A stretch of 64,000 nt of DNA, from NCBI GenBank assembly GCA_963783305.1, contig CAWAMW010000002.1, positions 544,001 to 608,000 on the forward strand. Reading direction: 5' to 3'. Below the pieces are notes generated by a model that searched no databases, was not told where the DNA came from, and saw only the letters and a list, made by a program, of their open reading frames with translations. Positions within the stretch are counted from its first letter, which is position 1, and every line of letters begins with the position of its first letter. Made by a program: the position numbers and the translations under genes. Origin of the DNA: an uncultured Gemmatimonadales bacterium (GTDB lineage: Bacteria > Gemmatimonadota > Gemmatimonadetes > Longimicrobiales > RSA9). Of the stretch, positions 1 through 10,875 are shown one piece after another.

Positions 1-88
1 GCGGGGTGGAGGATCATACATATGTTGGATAGCGGCCGTGAGCTCCGTCAGGCACATTTGGCGGGACTACTATCAACAAGGAGCGCGC

Positions 89-604
89 ATGCTGCCCGAC
101 CCCCTGCATCCCGCCGTGGTTCATTTTCCGATTGTCCTGTCCGCCCTCCTGCCAATCTTCGCGCTGGGCGCTCTCTGGGCAAATCGGCGGGGTGCCCATT
201 CCCGATGGACCTGGGCGATCCCGCTGGCCCTCTCGGCCGTCATGACCCTGAGCGGTTGGGTCTCCGTGGAGGCCGGTGAGGATCAGGGGGAGAGGGTGGA
301 GGACGTCGTGGGAGAATCGGCGCTGCACGAGCATGAAGAGGGTGGCGAGCGGTTCCTCGTCCTCTCCGGCCTCCTCCTCTTCGTCGCTGCGGCGGGTCTG
401 ATCGGCGGCACCGTGGGCACCGCCGGTCGGTACCTGACGACGGCCGGGTCGCTGGTCGTGCTCTGGGCAGGGGTCGCGGTGGGCAGCTCGGGCGGAGCGC
501 TCGTGTATGAGCACGGCGCCGCCGCGGCGTACGTCACGTCTCCGTCAGGGAACGCTCCGACGGCGGCCATTCAGGAAAACCACGAAGAGGAGGACGAACG
601 ATGA
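89..604 (+). CDS. DUF2231-like integral membrane protein
   Basis: ATG at 89 after AAGGAG; N-terminal LHPAVVHFPI motif, about 4 hydrophobic segments, GGALVYEHG near the C-terminus; stop overlaps next start (ATGA 601-604). Confidence 0.75.
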   Translation: MLPDPLHPAVVHFPIVLSALLPIFALGALWANRRGAHSRWTWAIPLALSAVMTLSGWVSVEAGEDQGERVEDVVGESALHEHEEGGERFLVLSGLLLFVAAAGLIGGTVGTAGRYLTTAGSLVVLWAGVAVGSSGGALVYEHGAAAAYVTSPSGNAPTAAIQENHEEEDER

Positions 605-1839
605 TCGGATTCCGACTGCCCGCCCCACTGACCCTGGCTGCATCCGCCACGGTCGTAACCCTTGTCGCGATCTTCCTCCTGCTCGCGAGCCCACCGCGCG
701 ACGCGGAAGCCATCCCGGCCTTCGCCCGCCAGTACAACGTCTCGTGCTCCCTCTGCCACGCACCGGCGCCGCGCCTCACGGAGTTCGGCGAGCAGTTCGC
801 CGCCAACGGATTCCGCCTGGCGCTCGAAGAAGAGCCGACGAAGGTGGTCGACACGGGCGACCCGCTCCTCCAGCTGATGGAAGATCTGCCGCTCGCGATT
901 CGGTTCGACGCGTACTTCCAGGCGCGCGCCGGCGGGGTTGGCCCCGAGACCGATTTCCAGACGCCCTGGGCCATCAAGCTGCTCTCCGGTGGCCGGGTCG
1001 CCGAGAAGGTCAGCTACTACATGTACTTCTTCATGTCCGAGCGCGGCGAGATCGCCGGACTGGAGGACGCGTTCATCCAGTTCAGCGACGTGGGCGGCAG
1101 CGGTGTCGACCTCCTCGTTGGCCAGTTCCAGGTCTCGGATCCCCTCTTCAAGCGGGAGCTCCGGCTGGAGTTCGAGGACTACCAGGCGTACCGCGTTCGG
1201 GTCGGTGAGACCCGCGCGGACCTCACCTACGACCGCGGGCTCCTGGCTGCCTTCTCACCATGGGAGGGCGCCGACGCATCGCTCCAGCTCCTCAATGGCC
1301 GCGGAATCGAACCCGCGGGTGAGCACCGGACCTACGACTCCGACAGCGGTAAGACCCTCGCCGCACGACTCTCCCAGGACCTTGGGACGTTCCGCTTGGG
1401 CGGCTTCGGCTACTACGGCGAGGAGACGACCGACGGGGTTCGCAACCGCATCCGCGTGCTCGGCCCCGACCTGAGCGTGGCGCTCGGACCCACTCTCGGG
1501 CTGAATGCACAGTACCTCTGGAGGGCAGACGACCGGCCGTTCTTCACCGATGCCGCCCCCACCGATACCGACGTCCAGATGGGCTTCGCCGAGCTGCTCT
1601 GGGCCCCGCAGGGGAACGCCGGGCGCTGGTTCTTCACCGCCCTCTACAACCATGTTGAGGCCGATTCACCGCTCTTCACGGTCCGACAGGGGGAAGCGGG
1701 GCTTCTGGAGAGCTACCGGTCCGGCGCGCTCGGAGCGAACTTCGTCATGGCCCGCAACGTTCGACTCACCAGCGAGATCCAGTACGACCTCGACCGCGAC
1801 GCCGCCCGCTTCGTGGCCGGCTTCATGTCCGCATTCTGA
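601..1839 (+). CDS. cyc2: Cyc2-like fused monoheme cytochrome c / outer-membrane porin
   Basis: Signal peptide then AIPAFARQY-NVS-CSLCH-APA-PRL-TEFGEQFAANGF, matching the Cyc2 AxPxFAR[QK][TY]..CxxCH..PxL signature; remainder amphipathic beta strands ending in Phe. Confidence 0.8.
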   Translation: MIGFRLPAPLTLAASATVVTLVAIFLLLASPPRDAEAIPAFARQYNVSCSLCHAPAPRLTEFGEQFAANGFRLALEEEPTKVVDTGDPLLQLMEDLPLAIRFDAYFQARAGGVGPETDFQTPWAIKLLSGGRVAEKVSYYMYFFMSERGEIAGLEDAFIQFSDVGGSGVDLLVGQFQVSDPLFKRELRLEFEDYQAYRVRVGETRADLTYDRGLLAAFSPWEGADASLQLLNGRGIEPAGEHRTYDSDSGKTLAARLSQDLGTFRLGGFGYYGEETTDGVRNRIRVLGPDLSVALGPTLGLNAQYLWRADDRPFFTDAAPTDTDVQMGFAELLWAPQGNAGRWFFTALYNHVEADSPLFTVRQGEAGLLESYRSGALGANFVMARNVRLTSEIQYDLDRDAARFVAGFMSAF

Positions 1840-1858
1840 CCGACTGCAGGAGGATACC

Positions 1859-2236
1859 ATGCGACTCTACACGATGCTCACCGCGCTCTCGATCGGCGCT
1901 CTCCTCGCGCTGCCTGGACTCGGCACGGCGCGGACCGCGGCCACGCAGGACCCCGGCGGTGAAAAGATCTTCCGGGGGAAGGGCAACTGCTTCACCTGCC
2001 ACGGCCCCGCCGGAAAGGGGACGCCGCTGGCTCCCGACCTGACCGACGATGTGTGGCTGGAGTTCGAGGGAACGCCCGCCCGCGCGGATATCGAGGACCT
2101 GGTGCGGCGCGGAGTGCCGCAACCGGTCCGCCATCCGGCCCCCATGCCCGCCATGGGCGGCGCACGCCTCAGCGATGACGAGATCACCGCGGTGGCCGAA
2201 TACGTCCTCTCTCTCAGCGGAGCTCCCGATGCATAG
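1859..2236 (+). CDS. Periplasmic class I monoheme cytochrome c
   Basis: ATG after AGGAGGA; signal peptide; CFTCH, APDL, distal Met in PMPAMGG, LSDDEITAVAEYV helix. Confidence 0.9.
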   Translation: MRLYTMLTALSIGALLALPGLGTARTAATQDPGGEKIFRGKGNCFTCHGPAGKGTPLAPDLTDDVWLEFEGTPARADIEDLVRRGVPQPVRHPAPMPAMGGARLSDDEITAVAEYVLSLSGAPDA

Positions 2237-2765
2237 CTGGACCCGGGCCATTCCTGCCCTGCCCGTCCTGCTGGCAGTCGCTGTCACGGGCGCCGCGTGC
2301 GGCAGCCCCGATGAGGCCCCGGAGATGGAGACGGCGGAAGTCACCAGGGTCGACTCGGGGAGCATCGCGGCCACCGGGGCGATGGACACGGCGGCGGCGG
2401 GGACGCGGGCAGCCCTTCCCTCCCTGTTCACCATCATGCTGGGCCTGCAGGGGGACCTCGACCGGATCAGCCACGGCCTCTGGACGGAGAGCTACGACAG
2501 CATCGCCGCGGCCGCCACGGGCGTGGCGGACCACCCGAGGGTCCCGCCCGAGGAGGCGTCCCTCATCGCGGGGATCCTCGGCTCGGACATGGCCCGCTTC
2601 CAGGCGCTGGACAGGGAGGTGCACGACCTCTCGGTGCAACTGGCCGAGCAGGCGCGAGCGCGGGACCTCGAGGCCGTTCTCGAGACCGACGCCCGGCTCC
2701 GCACGGGATGCGTAGAATGCCACACCACCTTCCGCGAGCGCCTGCGGGCAGGAGTGGATCGGTAG
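2229..2765 (+). CDS. Lipoprotein class II (c'-like) cytochrome c
   Basis: Hydrophobic leader with lipobox-like GAAC; helical body; C-terminal CVECH..FR; start overlaps previous gene. Confidence 0.8.
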   Translation: MHSWTRAIPALPVLLAVAVTGAACGSPDEAPEMETAEVTRVDSGSIAATGAMDTAAAGTRAALPSLFTIMLGLQGDLDRISHGLWTESYDSIAAAATGVADHPRVPPEEASLIAGILGSDMARFQALDREVHDLSVQLAEQARARDLEAVLETDARLRTGCVECHTTFRERLRAGVDR

Positions 2766-3919
2766 CCAGGGCAAGGGCCGCCGCCCCGCTGCTCTTCCTG
2801 TTCCTCGGAGGCGCGGCGGCGTGCGACCGCGACGGGACTCCCGACCGGGACCCCGCTTCGAGCGCCCCGGCCGCCACGGTCGCCACGGGCGACAGGAGCC
2901 CCGACGCCGCCACTCCCGGCTCTCCGCCGCGCCACGTGCTCATTCGGACGCCGGACGGCCCGACCGCCCGGGGTCTCGACAGCGCACACCTCGCCCGCGC
3001 CCTGGCGCTGGCCGACACGCTCCCGCGCCTGCGCTGCCTCATGATCGCGCGGCACGGGGAGACGCTGACGGAGCACTGCAGGCCGGGGTACGACCCCGCC
3101 GCTCCGGCGAACGTGAAGTCCGTATCGAAGAGCGTGCTCTCGGCACTGGTGGGGATCGCCATCGACGAGGGACACCTCGCCGGTGTGGAGCAGAGGCTGG
3201 TGCCGCTCCTGGAGTCCCATCTGGATACCCTCGCGGACCCGCGCAAGCGGGACATCACCATCGGGCACCTGCTGTCCATGCAGTCCGGTCTCGAGCGTAC
3301 CTCCGGTCGGAACTACGGTGCGTGGGTCAGCAGCCCCGACTGGGTGAGGGACGCCATCCGGCGACCCATGGAGGCGGATCCCGGCGGACGAATGCTCTAC
3401 AGCACCGGCAACTACCACCTCCTCTCCGCCATCCTCACGGACGCCACCGGGTCGAGCACCTGGGAGTATGCCCGGTCCCGGCTGGGCGACCCACTCGGGG
3501 TCCGCGTCCCGCGCTGGCCTACGGACCCTCAGGGCATCTACTTCGGGGGCAACGACATGCGGCTCTCTCCGCGCGCCATGGTCGCCTTCGGTGAGCTCTA
3601 CCGGAACGGTGGACGTAGCGGAGACGATCAGGTCGTGCCGGAAGACTGGGTCCGTAGTTCCCTGGAGCCCCGCACCCGCTCCCCCTGGAGCGGCAACCGC
3701 TACGGCTATGGCTGGTTCCTGGCCCGGGCGGGGCGGCACCCGATGTTCTTCGCCTGGGGCTACGGCGGCCAGTTCATCTTCGTGGTGCCGGACCTGGAGC
3801 TGACGGTCGTCACCACCTCCGACCCCGCCGCGCCCCGCGGGGGCGGCCACCTCCGCGCGATCCATGACCTGCTGGACAATGAGATCGTCCCGGCGGCCGA
3901 GGTCGGAAGCGGGGACTGA
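2708..3919 (+). CDS. Serine hydrolase, beta-lactamase class C / 6-aminohexanoate-dimer hydrolase family, probable lipoprotein
   Basis: SVSK (SxxK), LLSMQSGL, YST, AWGYGGQ motifs; AAAC lipobox-like; exact start uncertain. Confidence 0.85.
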   Translation: MRRMPHHLPRAPAGRSGSVARARAAAPLLFLFLGGAAACDRDGTPDRDPASSAPAATVATGDRSPDAATPGSPPRHVLIRTPDGPTARGLDSAHLARALALADTLPRLRCLMIARHGETLTEHCRPGYDPAAPANVKSVSKSVLSALVGIAIDEGHLAGVEQRLVPLLESHLDTLADPRKRDITIGHLLSMQSGLERTSGRNYGAWVSSPDWVRDAIRRPMEADPGGRMLYSTGNYHLLSAILTDATGSSTWEYARSRLGDPLGVRVPRWPTDPQGIYFGGNDMRLSPRAMVAFGELYRNGGRSGDDQVVPEDWVRSSLEPRTRSPWSGNRYGYGWFLARAGRHPMFFAWGYGGQFIFVVPDLELTVVTTSDPAAPRGGGHLRAIHDLLDNEIVPAAEVGSGD

Positions 3920-3954
3920 GATCCGACCACGGCTGGGCACGTTGCGTACTTCCT

Positions 3955-6906
3955 CTACCTGGAGGAGGCCGCCCCCGAGCGCAGCTCCTCGAAAAGCGCC
4001 GTCGTCTCCGCTTCGGGCTCCGCCTCCAGTTCGCGGCTCAGCAGTTCCACCACACGCGCATAATGACGGAGTGCCCGGGTCCTCTCTCCCGATCGGGCCC
4101 ATGCCGTCATGAGCCTCCGATGGACCTCCTCGTCCAGCTCCTCGCGCGCCGCAAGCGCCTCGTACACGCGGGCGGCCGCCGCCGGGTCGGTGGCCTCCAG
4201 CGCGGTGCCGAGCGCCAGGTGCAGCTCGACGGATGCCCGGCGGACGCCGTCACGGTGGGGATCGATCCAACGACCGACCGCCTCTCCCTCCAGCAGTTCG
4301 CCCCGACACAGCGCCAGCGCGTCCCGGATGGCATCCGCGTCAGCGACAGAGCGCTTCGTGACACGGGCCCTGGCCGTAAACTCCTCCACGTCGAAGCGGA
4401 TCCGCAGATCCGGCGAGAGCCGATATCGCTCCCCCTCCAGCACGATCCACTCGGGGTGCCTCAGCGCCTTCCGGAGATGGTGGAGCGTGACGTGGAAGCT
4501 GTTCTTGACCTTCGACCGCGGGCCCCCCGGCCAGAGCGCCTCGCCGATCTGGTCCCGGCTGCCGCCGAGCGGGTTCAGGAGCAGGTAGATCAGTAGCTCG
4601 CGGGGCTTTCCGTACGTGAAGCGCTCCGCCTCCAGCTCCTCTCCCTCCACACGCACGACGAGCGGCCCGAGCGCGTCCACCCGGAGCGCCGGCGATTCCT
4701 CGGTCTGCGGCGCGCGTCCCGCCTCCACACCGCCAGCCTTCACGCTCGCCGCGCCTTCGGACCGCGCCCCGTTCCCCCCGGAACGGGCACCAGCCGCCGT
4801 CGCAGTGGAATCGGAGCCGAACGGCTTTGCGTCCTCTGTACCCGCGACCAGCTCACCGAGGACGTCGTCCAGCGACAGCCGTCGCCCTTCCTCCCAGACG
4901 CGCTCGATTTCGTCGGCTCCCGCCGCCGCCTTCATCCGCACCACAGTTGCCGCGGCGCGCCGTGCGTCGAGGGGGAACGGGGTCGCACCGATCAGCTCAC
5001 GCGCCGCCTCGGCGGCTCCCATGAGCCGCGCCGCTTCCACCACACGACCCCGGCCTGCCGCGATCTCACCCATATAGGCGATCCCGATGGTGAGGAAGTA
5101 GAAGGAGGGATCGCGGCGGGAGGCCGTCAGGGCTTCCCGCACCAGCGCCTCGGCCTCTTCCAGTCGGTTTCGGGTGATCTGCACACCGGCCAGGTTCTGG
5201 AGCGCCACGGCAAGCTCCCGCTCCGCCCCGAAGAGCCGGGCCAGTCGAACGCCCTCACGGTTCAGCTCTTCGGCACGCTCGTATTCACCCCGGCCCATGG
5301 CACTGCTCCCCTGCAGCAGTGCGGCCAGGCGGAGCCCGTAGAGGTCGTCGTGGTCGCGGAACCAGGAGGCCGCCCGGCCGCAGAGGTCCATGGCGCGGGA
5401 ATCGCCCTCGCCGGCGTAGGTCATCCCCAGGTAGTTCGTCGCGTACGCCTCGAGACGCCCGTCACCCGCTTCCGCGGCCAGCGCTACGGCCTCCTCCAGG
5501 TCCGGGCGCGCCTCCGCCGCCCGGGCGCGCAGCGCAGCCAGCGCCCCGGCCGCGAAAAGCAGCGAAGCCCGCGCGTGGCCTCGCTCCGCGGCCTCCGGGA
5601 GCGCCCGCGCTCCGCGGATCCACCGGCCGGCCTCGGACCAGTGGCGGGTCGAGAACCAGAACCACCACAGCTTCCCGACCAGTCGGACGTGAAGCCCGCT
5701 ATCGTGATCGAAGCTCCACGCCAGCGCGGACCGGACATTGTCCATTTCCGGCTCCAGCCGCTCCACCCAGAACCGGCGCTCTCGCCGGATCAGGTGCGGC
5801 TCGGCCTCCACCACGCGCTCGAGCATGTACTCCGCGTGCCGGTGCCGCGTCTCCGCCTCTTCGCCGGCGCCCTTCAGCTCCTCCGTGGCGTACTGACGCA
5901 CCGCCTCCAGCAGGTGATAGCGCGCGAACCCGCCGTGCTCACGGACCACGAGCATCGAGCGGTCCACCAGGTGGGCGACCAGGTCGAGCACCTCCGGGCC
6001 CTCGATCTCACCCGCAGCCCCGACTCGCTCAGCTCCCTCCAGGCCGAACCCGCCCCGGAAGACTGCCACCCGCCGTAGAAGGACCCGCGCAGGCTCCCGC
6101 AGCAGGTCGTGGCTCCACTCGATCGTCGCCCGCAGCGTCCGATGCCGCGGCACCGCGATGCGGCTGCCCGACGTGAGGACCCCGAACACGTCGTCCAGCC
6201 GGGCCAGCAGGTCCGCCGGGCCCAGGACCTTCACCCGCGCCGCCGCGAGCTCGAGGGCCAGCGGAATGCCATCCAGACGGCGGCAGATCTCCGCCACAGC
6301 GCCAGCATTATTGTTATCGAGCGCGAAACCGGGCGCAACGTCACGGGCCCGCTCCACGAAGAGGCGCACCGCCTCCGAGCGCTCCGCCGCCTCGAGGGGC
6401 TCTCCGGTCCTGCCGTCCTCCGGCAGGGAGAGGGGCGGGACCAGCCATGCGCGCTCCCCCGGCACGCCCAGCGCCTCGCGGCTGGTGGCCAGCACCGCGA
6501 GGCCGGGGCAGCTCAGCAGCAGCTGGTGAACCGCCTCCGTGCAGGCGTCCACCAGGTGCTCGCAGTTGTCCAGCACCAGGAGCCCCTCATGGTCGCGGAG
6601 CAGACGCGCCAGGTCGTCCAGACCTCCCGCGCCCAACTCCTCGGCTCGCCGCACCGCCTCGGCGATCGTGGGCACCACCAGCGCGGGCTCACGAAGCGCC
6701 GCCAGCTCGACCCAGTCCACCGCACTCGACCAACGCGGGTCGCTTACCAGTGCCAGCGCCAGCCGCGTCTTTCCACTCCCGCCGGCGCCCGTGAGCGTGA
6801 CCAGCCTCGAGCGCGCGACGAGCTCCGCGATCTGCTCCAGCTCGGGCCCACGGCCGATGAAGCTGGTCAGCTCCGTGGGAATTCCGTACGGGTGTCGCTG
6901 CTTCAT
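3955..6906 (-). CDS. STAND (NB-ARC-like) ATPase-TPR transcriptional regulator with C-terminal wHTH/BTAD (SARP-type) module
   Basis: TSFIGR, GAGGSGKT, LLVLDNCEH, LDGIPLALELAAAR; C-terminal LWP..NSFHVTLHHLRKAL and EEVHRRLMTAWARSGERTRAL. Confidence 0.85.
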   Translation of the reverse strand: MKQRHPYGIPTELTSFIGRGPELEQIAELVARSRLVTLTGAGGSGKTRLALALVSDPRWSSAVDWVELAALREPALVVPTIAEAVRRAEELGAGGLDDLARLLRDHEGLLVLDNCEHLVDACTEAVHQLLLSCPGLAVLATSREALGVPGERAWLVPPLSLPEDGRTGEPLEAAERSEAVRLFVERARDVAPGFALDNNNAGAVAEICRRLDGIPLALELAAARVKVLGPADLLARLDDVFGVLTSGSRIAVPRHRTLRATIEWSHDLLREPARVLLRRVAVFRGGFGLEGAERVGAAGEIEGPEVLDLVAHLVDRSMLVVREHGGFARYHLLEAVRQYATEELKGAGEEAETRHRHAEYMLERVVEAEPHLIRRERRFWVERLEPEMDNVRSALAWSFDHDSGLHVRLVGKLWWFWFSTRHWSEAGRWIRGARALPEAAERGHARASLLFAAGALAALRARAAEARPDLEEAVALAAEAGDGRLEAYATNYLGMTYAGEGDSRAMDLCGRAASWFRDHDDLYGLRLAALLQGSSAMGRGEYERAEELNREGVRLARLFGAERELAVALQNLAGVQITRNRLEEAEALVREALTASRRDPSFYFLTIGIAYMGEIAAGRGRVVEAARLMGAAEAARELIGATPFPLDARRAAATVVRMKAAAGADEIERVWEEGRRLSLDDVLGELVAGTEDAKPFGSDSTATAAGARSGGNGARSEGAASVKAGGVEAGRAPQTEESPALRVDALGPLVVRVEGEELEAERFTYGKPRELLIYLLLNPLGGSRDQIGEALWPGGPRSKVKNSFHVTLHHLRKALRHPEWIVLEGERYRLSPDLRIRFDVEEFTARARVTKRSVADADAIRDALALCRGELLEGEAVGRWIDPHRDGVRRASVELHLALGTALEATDPAAAARVYEALAAREELDEEVHRRLMTAWARSGERTRALRHYARVVELLSRELEAEPEAETTALFEELRSGAASSR

Positions 6907-8169: not shown

Positions 8170-10875
8170 ATGACGCATACAGAAGCCACCGCGCTGCCGC
8201 GCCGCCGCAGAGCCGGCCCGCTCTCCCTCGCCCTGATCCTGCTGCCGCCTTTTTGGGTGGCGCTCCTCGCGGAGCCCATCGCCGGGCAGGTCCGGCCGTC
8301 GCCGCCGCCCGCGTCCGCGGCGGGGGACACGGTGACGCTCGTGCCGGCTCCCGAATACCAGGCCAGCGACCTGAAACGCACCCTCCTCGGATCCGGCTGG
8401 CGATCCCTGTGGACCACACCGGTCGATGTGCAGGTCCTCGACTTCGACGCGTACGCGGGCGGCGTGGACTGGACCGAGCGAGGGGGCGGGAACCAGAGCA
8501 TCACACTGCACCTGGAATCGGAGCAGGGCTGGCGCGAGTACATCTTCCGGTCGGTGAACAAGTTTCCGGAACAGGCGCTGCCGGAGGCGCTCGCCGGCAC
8601 CACCCTCGGCTGGGTCGTGGGCGACCTCATCAGCGCCATGTACCCTGCGGCGCCACTGCTCGTCCCGCCGCTCCTGGACGCCCTCGGCCTCCTGCACGTC
8701 GAGCCCGTGCTCCGCGTCATGCCCGACGACCCCCGGCTCGAGGTCTATCAGGACACGTTCGCCGGGATGCTCGGGACCGTCGAGCTTCGGCCGAACGAGG
8801 GGCCGGATGACACCCCCGGCTTCGCGGGATCATCGAAGATCAAGGGGACGGAGGAGTTCTTCAACGACCTCGACGCGAGTAAATCACACCGGCTCGACGA
8901 GCGGGAGTTCCTGGCCGCGCGGCTCCTCGACTTCATGATCAACGACACCGACCGGACCATGGACAACATGCGCTGGGCCCGGTACGGCACAGAGGACGAC
9001 TTCCACTGGAGGCCACTGCCTGTGGATCGCGACTGGGCTTTCGTGAACGCCGATGGCTGGGTCGGCAAGATCGCCACCGGCATCTATCCCAAGTTGGTGG
9101 AGCTCGGGCCCACGTATCCGGACATCGTATCGCTCACCTTCAGCTCCCACATCATTGACCGCAGGCTCCTCCAGCGCCTGACCCGCGACGATTTCGCCGG
9201 GGTGGCGGAGCTCGTCCAGGCCGCCATCACCGATGAGGCGGTGGAGACCGCGATCTCCCGCATGCCCGATCGCTGGCGCACTACCACCCACGCGCCCGAT
9301 CGAATCCGCGAGGTGCTGGAGGGTCGGCGCCAGCGCCTTCCGGACATCGCGGAGGATTTCTACGAGTATCTGGCCACCGATGTCGACATCCGGGGCACCG
9401 ACGAGCCGGACCTCGCGATCGTCGAGCGCCACGGCGATGGTCGCATCCGCGTCACACTCACCTGGCCGGAGGGCGACGCCCGCTCGGGCGAGCCCTTCTT
9501 CGACCGCACGTTCCTCCCGGCCGAGACCGGCGAGGTCCGTGTGTTCCTCCACGGCGCGGATGACGAGGCCCGCGTAATCGGCGCCAGCTCCGACGCCATC
9601 ACCGTGCGCGTCATCGGCGGCGGTGGCGATGATCGCTTCGTGGATGAAGCGGGCGGCGGGGCCACGCGCTTCTACGACGCGAACGGCGACAACGAGTTCC
9701 GGACGGCCCGCGGAACGAGCGTAAGCACCCGCCCCTGGGACCCGCCCACCCCCACCGAGGGGATGCGCCTCGGCGGCGCATGGGTCCCCGACTGGGCGGG
9801 CGGAAGGAAGTGGAGCCCCACCGTCGATTTCGGCGACGTGGCCGGCCTGGTGATCGGGGTCGGGCCCACATGGACCTCATACGGGTTCCGCCGCCTCCCC
9901 TACCACTGGACGCTCGCCGCCCGGGCCCTGTACTCCTTCGGAACAAACAGCCCCGGCGTCGAGCTCTCCGGCGACTACCGCCTCGAGAACTCCCCCCTCG
10001 CCCTCACTCTCGACGCTCGCGCCACGGACTTCGAGTCGTTCCGCTTCAACGGGTACGGCAACGACAGCCCCGATACGGGTGACGCGGGACTGATCCGGCA
10101 GGACCGGGTGGTGGTCTCACCCGCTCTCCGCTGGCACATCGGCTGGCGCCAGCGCGAGAGCGATCAGTTCCTCGTGGGCGCCGCCAAGCTCCAGGAGTCT
10201 GCCGGAGACGTCCGACCGCTCGTGGGGACGATGGACGTCGGGCCCACCTTCCTCTGGACCGACCCCGAGGCCGACCCCGGCTCGCCCGTCGCCACGGCCG
10301 ACTCCTTCAGCGCAGGCAGCCTCACAAGGCTCGGAGCCCGCACCGCTCTCGACCTGGACCGCACCGACAGGGACGGCGTGCCCCACCGCGGCTGGAAATT
10401 CCACGCGGGCGCCGCCGGGTACCCCGCATGGGCCGGGCTGCCCGACGCGTTCGCAGAAGGCTCGGCGGAGGCCAGCGCCTTCGTGCCGCTCATCGATACG
10501 GGCCTCCACATGGCCCTGCGTGCAGGAGGCAGTGGCGCGATCGGCGCCTTCCCCGTCCAGCACTCGCCCTTCGTGGGCGGACGCACCACCCTGCGCGGCT
10601 ACCGCTGGCAACGGTATCGCGGCGACGCCGCCGCGTTCGGCTCCGCGGAGCTGCGCGCGCCACTCGTGCCGGTCGAGCTCCTCATTCGCTGGAACACCGG
10701 CGTCTTCGGGCTCGCCGATGCCGGCCGGGTCTGGGTCGATGGCGAAAGCCCCGGCGGCTGGCACACCGCCTTCGGCGCGGGCCTCTGGCTCGAAGCCCTC
10801 GACAACGTCGTGAGCGCTGCGTGGGCACGGGGCGACGAGGACCGCTTCTACCTCCAGGTGAACACAGGCTTCTAG
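8170..10875 (+). CDS. Omp85/BamA-TamA-type outer-membrane protein with large N-terminal domain
   Basis: Signal peptide; C-terminal barrel with GGRTTLRGY..RYRG (VRGY-like) loop, ELRAPL, DAGRVW, terminal Phe. Confidence 0.75.
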   Translation: MTHTEATALPRRRRAGPLSLALILLPPFWVALLAEPIAGQVRPSPPPASAAGDTVTLVPAPEYQASDLKRTLLGSGWRSLWTTPVDVQVLDFDAYAGGVDWTERGGGNQSITLHLESEQGWREYIFRSVNKFPEQALPEALAGTTLGWVVGDLISAMYPAAPLLVPPLLDALGLLHVEPVLRVMPDDPRLEVYQDTFAGMLGTVELRPNEGPDDTPGFAGSSKIKGTEEFFNDLDASKSHRLDEREFLAARLLDFMINDTDRTMDNMRWARYGTEDDFHWRPLPVDRDWAFVNADGWVGKIATGIYPKLVELGPTYPDIVSLTFSSHIIDRRLLQRLTRDDFAGVAELVQAAITDEAVETAISRMPDRWRTTTHAPDRIREVLEGRRQRLPDIAEDFYEYLATDVDIRGTDEPDLAIVERHGDGRIRVTLTWPEGDARSGEPFFDRTFLPAETGEVRVFLHGADDEARVIGASSDAITVRVIGGGGDDRFVDEAGGGATRFYDANGDNEFRTARGTSVSTRPWDPPTPTEGMRLGGAWVPDWAGGRKWSPTVDFGDVAGLVIGVGPTWTSYGFRRLPYHWTLAARALYSFGTNSPGVELSGDYRLENSPLALTLDARATDFESFRFNGYGNDSPDTGDAGLIRQDRVVVSPALRWHIGWRQRESDQFLVGAAKLQESAGDVRPLVGTMDVGPTFLWTDPEADPGSPVATADSFSAGSLTRLGARTALDLDRTDRDGVPHRGWKFHAGAAGYPAWAGLPDAFAEGSAEASAFVPLIDTGLHMALRAGGSGAIGAFPVQHSPFVGGRTTLRGYRWQRYRGDAAAFGSAELRAPLVPVELLIRWNTGVFGLADAGRVWVDGESPGGWHTAFGAGLWLEALDNVVSAAWARGDEDRFYLQVNTGF

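What the first reader, a model, noticed from the sequence alone, without database searches (positions are those of the whole stretch)
89..2765. Cyc2-type cytochrome-porin operon with its own periplasmic and membrane partners
Seen: four tightly coupled genes (ATGA overlap at 601-604, 19-bp gap, 8-bp overlap) encoding a His-containing 4-TM DUF2231-like protein, a Cyc2-signature cytochrome-porin, a His/Met class I cytochrome c and a lipid-anchored class II cytochrome c. Known: Cyc2 proteins act as outer-membrane Fe(II) oxidases in Acidithiobacillus, Zetaproteobacteria and Gallionellaceae, and many homologs have no tested function. Inference: the four products could form a complete outer membrane to periplasm to inner membrane electron path in a lineage not known for lithotrophy, with DUF2231 as a possible heme b/quinone-side partner. 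I do not know of this combination being described.
Basis: partly seen in the sequence, partly recalled or inferred. Interest (0 to 1): 0.85.

Follow-up and report, generated by a model that had tools for sequence, protein, structure and literature searches.

The report
Cyc2 cytochrome-porin mosaic with membrane regulator
A bacterium from a soil sample encodes a Cyc2-family outer-membrane cytochrome-pore followed by a small cytochrome that accompanies it in over half of its relatives and likely takes its electrons, whereas the other two genes are occasional add-ons, one from a separate module likely run by a membrane-bound regulator, so the four-gene set is a rare mosaic rather than a conserved complete wire.

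Summary
The four coupled genes are real. ORF2 meets the published Cyc2 criteria: signature motif, one CxxCH, 412 aa, predicted 16-strand OprP/OprO-like barrel. The host groups with Gemmatimonadota (Longimicrobiales), where Cyc2-like genes are common (128 of 301 genomes) and already noted in print. Only cyc2 plus the class I cytochrome is a conserved pair (31 of 55 related loci). The full four-gene order was found in 0 of 26 other family loci. DUF2231 instead travels with a divergent two-helix membrane LuxR regulator (21 of 23 loci; here just off-window) and a 17-bp promoter motif (window 16-32), whose best genome-wide copy precedes a di-haem peroxidase-family gene. DUF2231 has decayed in 3 of 4 family LuxR-cyc2 loci while cyc2 stays intact. 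It is, however, fused to the class II cytochrome twice and recurs beside the closest Cyc2 homologues. Its conserved His/Glu residues all map to one membrane face, arguing against a transmembrane di-haem b wire. Best reading: a regulated Cyc2-to-cytochrome c electron-uptake branch feeding oxidases encoded elsewhere in a probable non-autotroph; Fe(II) activity, direction and Cyc2 cluster are untested. The scan earlier noted a porin-cytochrome c-DUF2231 set on other DNA (unchecked).

The parts
1..88 (.). Intergenic region shared with a divergent gene just off-window (G000:C2:543403-543954, minus strand): 184-aa regulator with two N-terminal membrane helices (conserved Asp in helix 1, invariant His and near-invariant Glu at the start of helix 2) and a C-terminal LuxR/GerE HTH
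   Evidence: position; PF00196 E 1e-8, over cut-off; alignment; weak, below-cut-off match to the LIC13292 family
16..32 (+). Copy of a conserved 17-bp promoter motif with a dyad core, 56 nt before the ORF1 start; likely binding site of the divergent LuxR (inferred)
   Evidence: matrix trained on 20 other loci scores it 16.9 bits at the same spacing (51-59 nt in most relatives); genome-wide control
89..604 (+). ORF1, DUF2231-family membrane protein, 171 aa, four-helix bundle; conserved H7, H12, E71, H80, H82, E83, E84, E87, Y140, H142 all on the inferred periplasmic face; paralogue with its own LuxR and no cyc2 at G000:C2:494348-495547
   Evidence: paralogue
601..1839 (+). ORF2, Cyc2-family fused monohaem cytochrome c-porin, 412 aa; hydrophobic signal region, Cyc2 motif at about 709-735, CxxCH at 745-759, PxL motif, predicted 16-strand barrel at about 892-1833
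   Evidence: criteria from PMC8406198
1859..2236 (+). ORF3, class I monohaem cytochrome c, 125 aa, signal peptide-like N-terminus, CxxCH 44-48, Met96 as likely sixth ligand; likely periplasmic redox partner of Cyc2; three paralogues elsewhere in the genome
   Evidence: (nearest solved relatives are CcoP domains, E 1e-11)
2229..2765 (+). ORF4, class II (four-helix-bundle type) monohaem cytochrome c, 178 aa, predicted lipoprotein (Cys24), C-terminal CxxCH 161-165, invariant Met70, His102, His132; accessory

Best explanation
ORF2 is a Cyc2-family cytochrome-porin that likely takes single electrons from extracellular Fe(II) or a similar reduced donor and likely passes them to the adjacent class I cytochrome c (ORF3), which would carry them to haem-copper oxidases encoded elsewhere, under likely control of a divergent membrane-bound LuxR regulator. 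Shown: family membership by motif and predicted fold, the cyc2-ORF3 pairing, the LuxR-DUF2231 pairing, the promoter motif, several haem-copper oxidase subunit I genes and cytochrome c maturation genes in the genome. Inferred: the substrate, the inward direction, ORF3 as acceptor, and LuxR binding the motif. ORF4 is an optional membrane-tethered relay. ORF1 (DUF2231) came in with the regulator and is more likely a periplasm-facing His/Glu metal- or haem-binding accessory of that module than a quinone-side cytochrome b. With no RuBisCO or acetyl-CoA synthase found, the branch would give supplementary energy or redox control to a heterotroph or mixotroph rather than support autotrophy.
For: Cyc2 motif spacing, single CxxCH, 16 strands and OprP/OprO as top fold hits. 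Fe(II) oxidation is reported for Cyc2 proteins of all three clusters, including a second cluster 3 protein (PMC8406198 section 13; PMC13647500 passages; PMC13692758 sections). An ORF3 homologue directly follows cyc2 in 16 of 24 family loci and 15 of 31 more distant loci with enough flank, in both large Gemmatimonadota clades of the tree. LuxR is divergent from 21 of 23 close DUF2231 copies. Strict motif: 11 matches in 9 of 73 genomes, 0 for the reversed control; 9 lie at LuxR/DUF2231 or LuxR/cyc2 promoters, 1 before a decayed DUF2231 gene and 1 before the di-haem gene. The genome has six long PF00115 matches and three PF01578 matches, and no PF00016 or PF03598 match (96% complete).
Against: No activity, expression or binding data. 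The Cyc2 cluster could not be assigned, and function outside cluster 1 is called uncertain. Measured Cyc2 potentials span -130 mV to over +500 mV, so direction cannot be read from sequence. Iron reducers also carry cluster 3 cyc2 (FeGenie preprint passages). 24 of 55 loci lack the ORF3 neighbour, including all 4 family LuxR-linked loci, and ORF3 has three paralogues that could serve other chains. The window's motif copy is degenerate: 13 genome sites score as high, against a mean of 6.1 (range 1-16) for 12 column-shuffled matrices, so only its position marks it. The motif could be a sigma-factor element rather than a LuxR operator.
Confidence: 0.5

Rival explanations
1. One reading: all four proteins form one wire from the outer membrane to the quinone pool, with DUF2231 as a haem b membrane terminus; it could run inward (uptake) or outward (reduction of Fe(III) or humics).
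For: Tight translational coupling. DUF2231 and the class II cytochrome are fused in P0189 and in L102, where the fusion precedes a broken cyc2. Contig length and source coincide for DUF2231 with 6 of the 19 closest Cyc2 homologues (6 matches among 120 x 119 listed, control mean 0.57, max 3) and with 4 of 27 class II cytochromes (control mean 0.44, max 3) (indirect). H12 (118 of 119) and H82 (119 of 119) on helices 1 and 3 could ligate one haem.
Against: Four-gene order in 0 of 26 other family loci and 0 of 32 others. DUF2231 decayed in 3 of 4 family LuxR-cyc2 loci. DUF2231 is common in the phylum without Cyc2 linkage (191 of 301 genomes; 0 of 20 distant cyc2 loci have it nearby). No conserved His in the cytoplasmic half, so no two-haem transmembrane path (topology inferred). 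Two of the four DUF2231/class II co-occurrences are on contigs too short to hold cyc2 between them (1369 and 1763 bp).
Confidence: 0.15
2. The operon is a protective redox module: the membrane LuxR senses periplasmic Fe(II), haem or peroxide and turns on Cyc2 to remove surface Fe(II) and feed electrons through ORF3/ORF4 to a co-regulated di-haem peroxidase, limiting Fenton chemistry rather than conserving energy.
For: The single perfect motif in the 4.35-Mb genome (25.2 bits; 0 such sites in 12 shuffled matrices) plus a second copy lie upstream of a CCP/MauG-family gene at C2:510008-511084, whose close homologue follows LuxR-DUF2231 directly in L139 and L151. Other LuxR-DUF2231 neighbours include haemerythrin, Rieske, PepSY, Tll0287 and other c-type cytochromes.
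Against: The di-haem gene is below the NCBIfam cut-offs for MauG and MbnH and is not shown to be a peroxidase. Most LuxR-DUF2231 loci have no cytochrome within 1.5 kb. Most cyc2 genes of this subfamily have no motif: of 67 upstream regions scored only L045 was high.
Confidence: 0.22
3. This Cyc2 subfamily is not an iron oxidase but a redox-linked channel or sensor for another solute, with the cytochromes resetting its haem.
For: The subfamily is spread through Gemmatimonadota, KSB1, Bacteroidota and Aminicenantota with no tested member. The most conserved residues outside the haem domain are charged barrel positions (E147, E155, D156, D180, R185, R188, R212). No conserved second His or Met ligand was found among 120 close homologues.
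Against: Every Cyc2-family protein assayed in the papers read oxidised Fe(II). Only one axial His is also predicted for the known Cyc2 proteins (PMC13741234 passages), so the missing ligand is not a difference.
Confidence: 0.13

Closest known systems
Cyc2 fused cytochrome-porin family (Acidithiobacillus Cyc2, Leptospirillum Cyt572, Mariprofundus Cyc2 PV-1, Ghiorsea Cyc2 TAG1, Ca. Mariimomonas cluster 3 Cyc2)
   Same: Signal region, AxPxFAR[QK][TY] motif, one CxxCH, PxL, 16-strand barrel matching OprP/OprO.
   Different: Separate subfamily in a phylum with no tested member; cluster not assigned; followed by a monohaem class I cytochrome rather than a dihaem c4; linked here to a membrane LuxR module.
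Acidithiobacillus rus operon (cyc2-cyc1-cup-coxBACD-rus; PMC10654088 passages)
   Same: cyc2 directly followed by a periplasmic c-type cytochrome in one operon.
   Different: No oxidase, rusticyanin or Cup in this operon; the partners are monohaem; host is not an acidophile autotroph (no RuBisCO match).
Class II cytochromes c (cytochrome c' and c-556)
   Same: C-terminal CxxCH; profile matches c' (E 4e-5) and weakly c-556 (E 0.65).
   Different: Predicted lipid anchor; invariant Met70, His102, His132; naturally fused to DUF2231 twice. Whether Met70 ligates the iron, as recalled for c-556, is untested.
Membrane-anchored LuxR regulators (NCBIfam LIC13292 family)
   Same: N-terminal membrane segment plus C-terminal LuxR HTH; match E 7e-20.
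   Different: Below the family cut-off (72 versus 200 bits); no paper on LIC13292 in the library; paired with DUF2231 and a 17-bp motif.

Membership tests
Cyc2 cytochrome-porin | AxPxFAR[QK][TY] motif 5 residues before CxxCH and PxL 4 residues after | tested here: met
   Sequence against the definition in PMC8406198; P39, F41, R43, C49, C52, H53, P57, L59 invariant in 120 homologues.
Cyc2 cytochrome-porin | Single CxxCH, N-terminal export signal, length of at least 365-375 aa | tested here: met
   412 aa, one CxxCH, hydrophobic helix 8-28; thresholds. No signal-peptide predictor was run.
Cyc2 cytochrome-porin | 16-strand beta-barrel like OprP/OprO | tested here: met
   Model pLDDT 87, 16 strands; Foldseek 2o4v E 2e-13, 4rjw E 8e-13; VIA-align 2o4v Z 23.9, rmsd 3.4, 303 aligned.
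Cyc2 cytochrome-porin | FeGenie HMM hit and cluster 1/2/3 placement | not testable with these tools
   No FeGenie model or reference Cyc2 sequences available; Pfam and NCBIfam give no hit; the published alignment is not held as text.
Cyc2 cytochrome-porin | Fe(II) oxidation | not testable with these tools
   Needs an assay.
Class I cytochrome c (ORF3) | N-terminal CxxCH, distal Met, Pfam PF00034/PF13442 over cut-off | tested here: met
   Met96 in a Met-Pro motif seen in neighbours of related cyc2 genes; ligation itself is inferred.
Class II cytochrome c (ORF4) | C-terminal CxxCH on a four-helix bundle, PF01322 | tested here: inconclusive
   Motif invariant in 28 sequences; PF01322 21.8 bits against cut-off 26.5; profile hits c' over the C-terminal 54 residues only; not folded.
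DUF2231 (ORF1) | PF09990 match | tested here: inconclusive
   Below cut-off as a protein; most homologues carry PF09990; Atlas top clusters DUF2231 at 0.97.
Di-haem transmembrane cytochrome b (ORF1) | Two pairs of intramembrane His on opposite sides of the membrane | tested here: not met
   Conserved His 7, 12, 80, 82, 142 lie at the starts of helices 1 and 3 and after helix 4, all on one face; His37 on the other face is not conserved. Sidedness inferred from conserved Arg33, Arg34, Arg114.
Di-haem transmembrane cytochrome b (ORF1) | Fold match to a solved cytochrome b | tested here: inconclusive
   Only generic four-helix bundles matched; a single periplasm-side haem remains possible.
Conserved four-gene Cyc2 operon | Gene order kept in relatives | tested here: not met
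   0 of 26 other family loci and 0 of 32 more distant loci hold all four; cyc2-ORF3 31 of 55, cyc2-ORF3-ORF4 1 of 55, intact DUF2231-cyc2 1 of 55, plus L004.

The most novel reading that the evidence does not exclude
The two-helix membrane LuxR and DUF2231 form an undescribed periplasm-facing Fe(II)/haem sensor that switches on a Cyc2 operon and a di-haem peroxidase through one 17-bp operator, and DUF2231, docked or fused to the class II cytochrome, is a haem-binding membrane terminus, giving soil Gemmatimonadota a regulated, complete surface-to-membrane electron path and the first dedicated Cyc2 regulator.
Probability: 0.18. Interest if true: 0.8.

Novelty: new variant of a known kind. Interest (0 to 1): 0.48.

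Why it matters
The native periplasmic partner of neutrophilic Cyc2 is described as unidentified (PMC13692758, sections read), and most Cyc2 homologues are untested. This subfamily offers a compact, recurrent Cyc2-monohaem cytochrome pair that can be expressed and assayed together. If it oxidises Fe(II), a large share of Gemmatimonadota would carry an iron-linked electron-uptake branch; if not, cyc2 is over-read as an iron-oxidation marker in this phylum. The LuxR-DUF2231 pair with its motif gives a testable regulator and a first functional lead for a common DUF. The searches made found no paper on it.

Tried and rejected
Pfam and NCBIfam have no model for ORF2; sequence search of solved structures found nothing; plasmid tblastn gave one short unannotated N-terminal hit. 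A long inverted repeat that I first saw at window 18-59 occurs in 1 of 26 promoters and was dropped. No sigma-70 promoter and no + strand terminator were found in 1-4200. ORF1 and ORF4 profiles are unrelated. Fold searches with the ORF1 model gave only generic helical bundles, no cytochrome b. Trans-regulation of unlinked cyc2 genes by the motif is mostly rejected: 1 of 67 upstream regions scored high (L045), in a genome with no close DUF2231. DUF2231 next to distant Cyc2 paralogues: 0 of 20 loci; one weak case 1.7 kb upstream of cyc2 in L086. No nosZ or ccoN over cut-off in the genome; the ATP-citrate lyase search rang in no control and says nothing. No RNA holder listed. No complex model was obtained, so binding between any of the proteins is untested. 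The tree is the quick version only. Literature: cyc2 + DUF2231, 0 papers; DUF2231, 1 database paper, listing only; Longimicrobi + cyc2, 2 papers; cyc2 + LuxR, 2 papers, listing only. The library lacks most subscription papers, and the figshare Cyc2 tree files, which may already hold this subfamily, could not be seen.
Full report
Observation. The four ORFs and their junctions are as described: 89-604, 601-1839, 1859-2236, 2229-2765. Contig pieces of run X1, recorded as a soil metagenome and possibly the source sample, bridge each junction. The window is G000:C2:544001-608000 of a 4.35-Mb, 96% complete genome. The named homologues closest to ORF2 are from Longimicrobiales and other Gemmatimonadota.

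ORF2 is a Cyc2. Keffer et al. define the family by an AxPxFAR[QK][TY] motif before a single CxxCH, a PxL motif after it, and a 16-strand barrel like OprO/OprP (PMC8406198, passages). ORF2 has all three at the stated spacing, and the motif residues are invariant in 120 homologues. The AlphaFold2 model (pLDDT 87) has 16 long strands. The top Foldseek hits are OprP (E 2e-13) and OprO; VIA-align ranks Omp32 (Z 24.6) and OprP (Z 23.9) as tied best. His53 is the only conserved His, and no Met is conserved among close homologues; only one axial His is predicted for known Cyc2 proteins too (PMC13741234, passages). I could not assign a cluster. Atlas neighbours are unnamed clusters, mostly Bacteroidota and Aminicenantota.

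It is common. An alignment profile matched 128 of 301 sampled genomes of the phylum at E 0.001, 42 of them at E below 1e-50; the tally includes one unpublished genome, G156. In the family, 27 of 73 genomes match. Of 20 weak-match loci fetched, 18 show the Cyc2 motif. Cyc2 was already called widely annotated in marine Gemmatimonadota, with direction left open (PMC11316326, passages).

What is conserved. I fetched flanks for all family hits and 32 of the 38 strong non-family hits. An ORF3 homologue directly follows cyc2 in 16 of 24 family loci and 15 of 31 other loci with at least 1.4 kb downstream; loci with shorter flanks (2 and 1) were left out, as were the two fragments from G317. Kin are not independent, but the pair occurs in both large Gemmatimonadota clades of a quick tree. 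ORF4 follows in 1 of those 55 (G341, same genus), intact DUF2231 precedes cyc2 in 1 of 55 with enough upstream flank (G323) and also in L004, and no locus other than the window has all four. Of 16 family matches to the ORF4 profile, 2 are beside cyc2.

DUF2231 belongs to a regulator module. Just before the window lies a divergent gene for two membrane helices plus a LuxR HTH. Of 23 close DUF2231 copies in the family, 21 have this gene divergent and 2, counting the window, have cyc2 next; flanks were 1.5 kb and L133 ends at a contig edge. The genome's second LuxR-DUF2231 pair has no cyc2. In 4 family loci LuxR sits upstream of cyc2; in 3 of them DUF2231 is truncated or decayed while LuxR, the motif and cyc2 persist, and none has ORF3. 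A 17-bp motif with a dyad core lies 51-59 nt before most DUF2231 starts: 19 of 20 training regions scored 12.7 bits or more, and the held-out window copy at 16-32 scored 16.9 at 56 nt. By score alone that copy is weak: 13 genome sites reach it, against a mean of 6.1 for shuffled matrices. The strict pattern has 11 matches in 9 of 73 genomes and 0 for its reversed control. The one perfect site in G000, with a second copy 49 bp away, precedes a CCP/MauG-family di-haem gene whose close homologue follows LuxR-DUF2231 in L139 and L151. That the LuxR binds this motif is inference.

Is DUF2231 a cytochrome b? The model is a four-helix bundle (pLDDT 87) with only generic fold matches. Conserved Arg in loops 1 and 3 suggest both termini face the periplasm. 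On that topology H7, H12, E71, H80, H82, E83, E84, E87, Y140 and H142 cluster on the periplasmic face and no conserved His lies on the other side. This argues against a two-haem transmembrane wire but allows one haem or a metal site. In favour of a redox role: P0189 is a DUF2231-class II cytochrome fusion, L102 holds a second one ahead of an internally deleted cyc2, and contig length and source coincide between DUF2231 and 6 of the 19 closest Cyc2 homologues (control mean 0.57 over the whole lists) and 4 of 27 ORF4 homologues (control mean 0.44). That last test is indirect. So the linkage recurs in a narrow clade but is not obligatory. Across the phylum DUF2231 is common (191 of 301 genomes) and was near 0 of 20 distant cyc2 loci.

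Mechanism. Most likely (0.5): Cyc2 takes electrons at the surface, probably from Fe(II), and passes them to ORF3, whose nearest solved relatives are CcoP domains; ORF3, perhaps via the tethered ORF4, feeds haem-copper oxidases encoded elsewhere. The genome has six long PF00115 matches, eight NrfD matches and cytochrome c maturation genes, and no RuBisCO or CdhC match; other carbon-fixation routes were not tested conclusively. From general knowledge, electrons on a His/Met class I cytochrome run to oxidases without entering the quinone pool, so no membrane cytochrome b is needed. Fe(II) oxidation is reported for members of all clusters (PMC8406198 section 13; PMC7029218 passages; PMC13647500 passages; PMC13692758 abstract and sections 13 and 18). 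Against over-reading: cluster 3 cyc2 also occurs in iron reducers (10.1101/777656 passages), one MAG with both Cyc2 and OmcS is discussed in 10.1101/2020.09.22.307553 (passages), and potentials vary widely. Rivals: a protective Fe(II)/peroxide regulon (0.22), the full four-part wire (0.15), a non-iron function (0.13).

Comparison and novelty. It works like the cyc2-cyc1 start of the Acidithiobacillus rus operon (PMC10654088 passages) but with monohaem partners and no oxidase in the operon. It is a Cyc2 family member by every sequence and fold criterion I could test. The four-gene combination was not found in the searches made, but it is a rare mosaic. What is new is the recurrent monohaem partner, the membrane LuxR-DUF2231 module with its motif, and the DUF2231-cytochrome fusion. 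Earlier notes of this scan report a LuxR-DUF2231 pair beside metal and redox genes and a porin-cytochrome c-DUF2231 set in other genomes; they are unchecked leads. Verdict: new variant of a known kind, interest 0.48.

Noticed in passing
G000:C2:543403-543954 (just before window position 1), minus strand: Two-helix membrane LuxR with conserved Asp and His-x3-Glu at the outer ends of its helices; a possible one-component metal or haem sensor.
   Followed up: partly
   Followed up: partly
window 2708-3919 +: Beta-lactamase-family serine hydrolase (PF00144) overlapping ORF4; no homologue in any related cyc2 locus. A contig of run X1 leaves the window at 2802 and resumes with letters like those near 3003, which may be a deletion variant.
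   Followed up: partly
L102:2-1359: DUF2231-class II cytochrome fusion followed by a cyc2 that has lost its haem domain by internal deletion and is split across frames.
   Followed up: partly
L045 (G307:C1), about 67 nt before cyc2: Strong motif copy before cyc2 in a genome with no close DUF2231; the regulator was not searched for there.
   Followed up: no
L046:3493-4116 and L067:3586-4230: A Tll0287-like c-type cytochrome lies on the far side of the LuxR in two LuxR-cyc2 loci.
   Followed up: no
L187, L188, L193: A longer, distant Cyc2 type sits upstream of multihaem cytochrome genes in several Gemmatimonadota.
   Followed up: no
window 3955-6906 -: STAND NTPase-TPR-BTAD regulator, 983 aa.
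   Followed up: no
window 8170-10875 +: 901-aa protein with a C-terminal Omp85-like barrel (weak Pfam match) and an unannotated N-terminal part.
   Followed up: no
G000:C2:434695-444243 and C15:153363-163978: Clusters of multihaem cytochromes (up to 16-17 CxxCH) elsewhere in the genome, relevant to extracellular electron transfer in this host.
   Followed up: no
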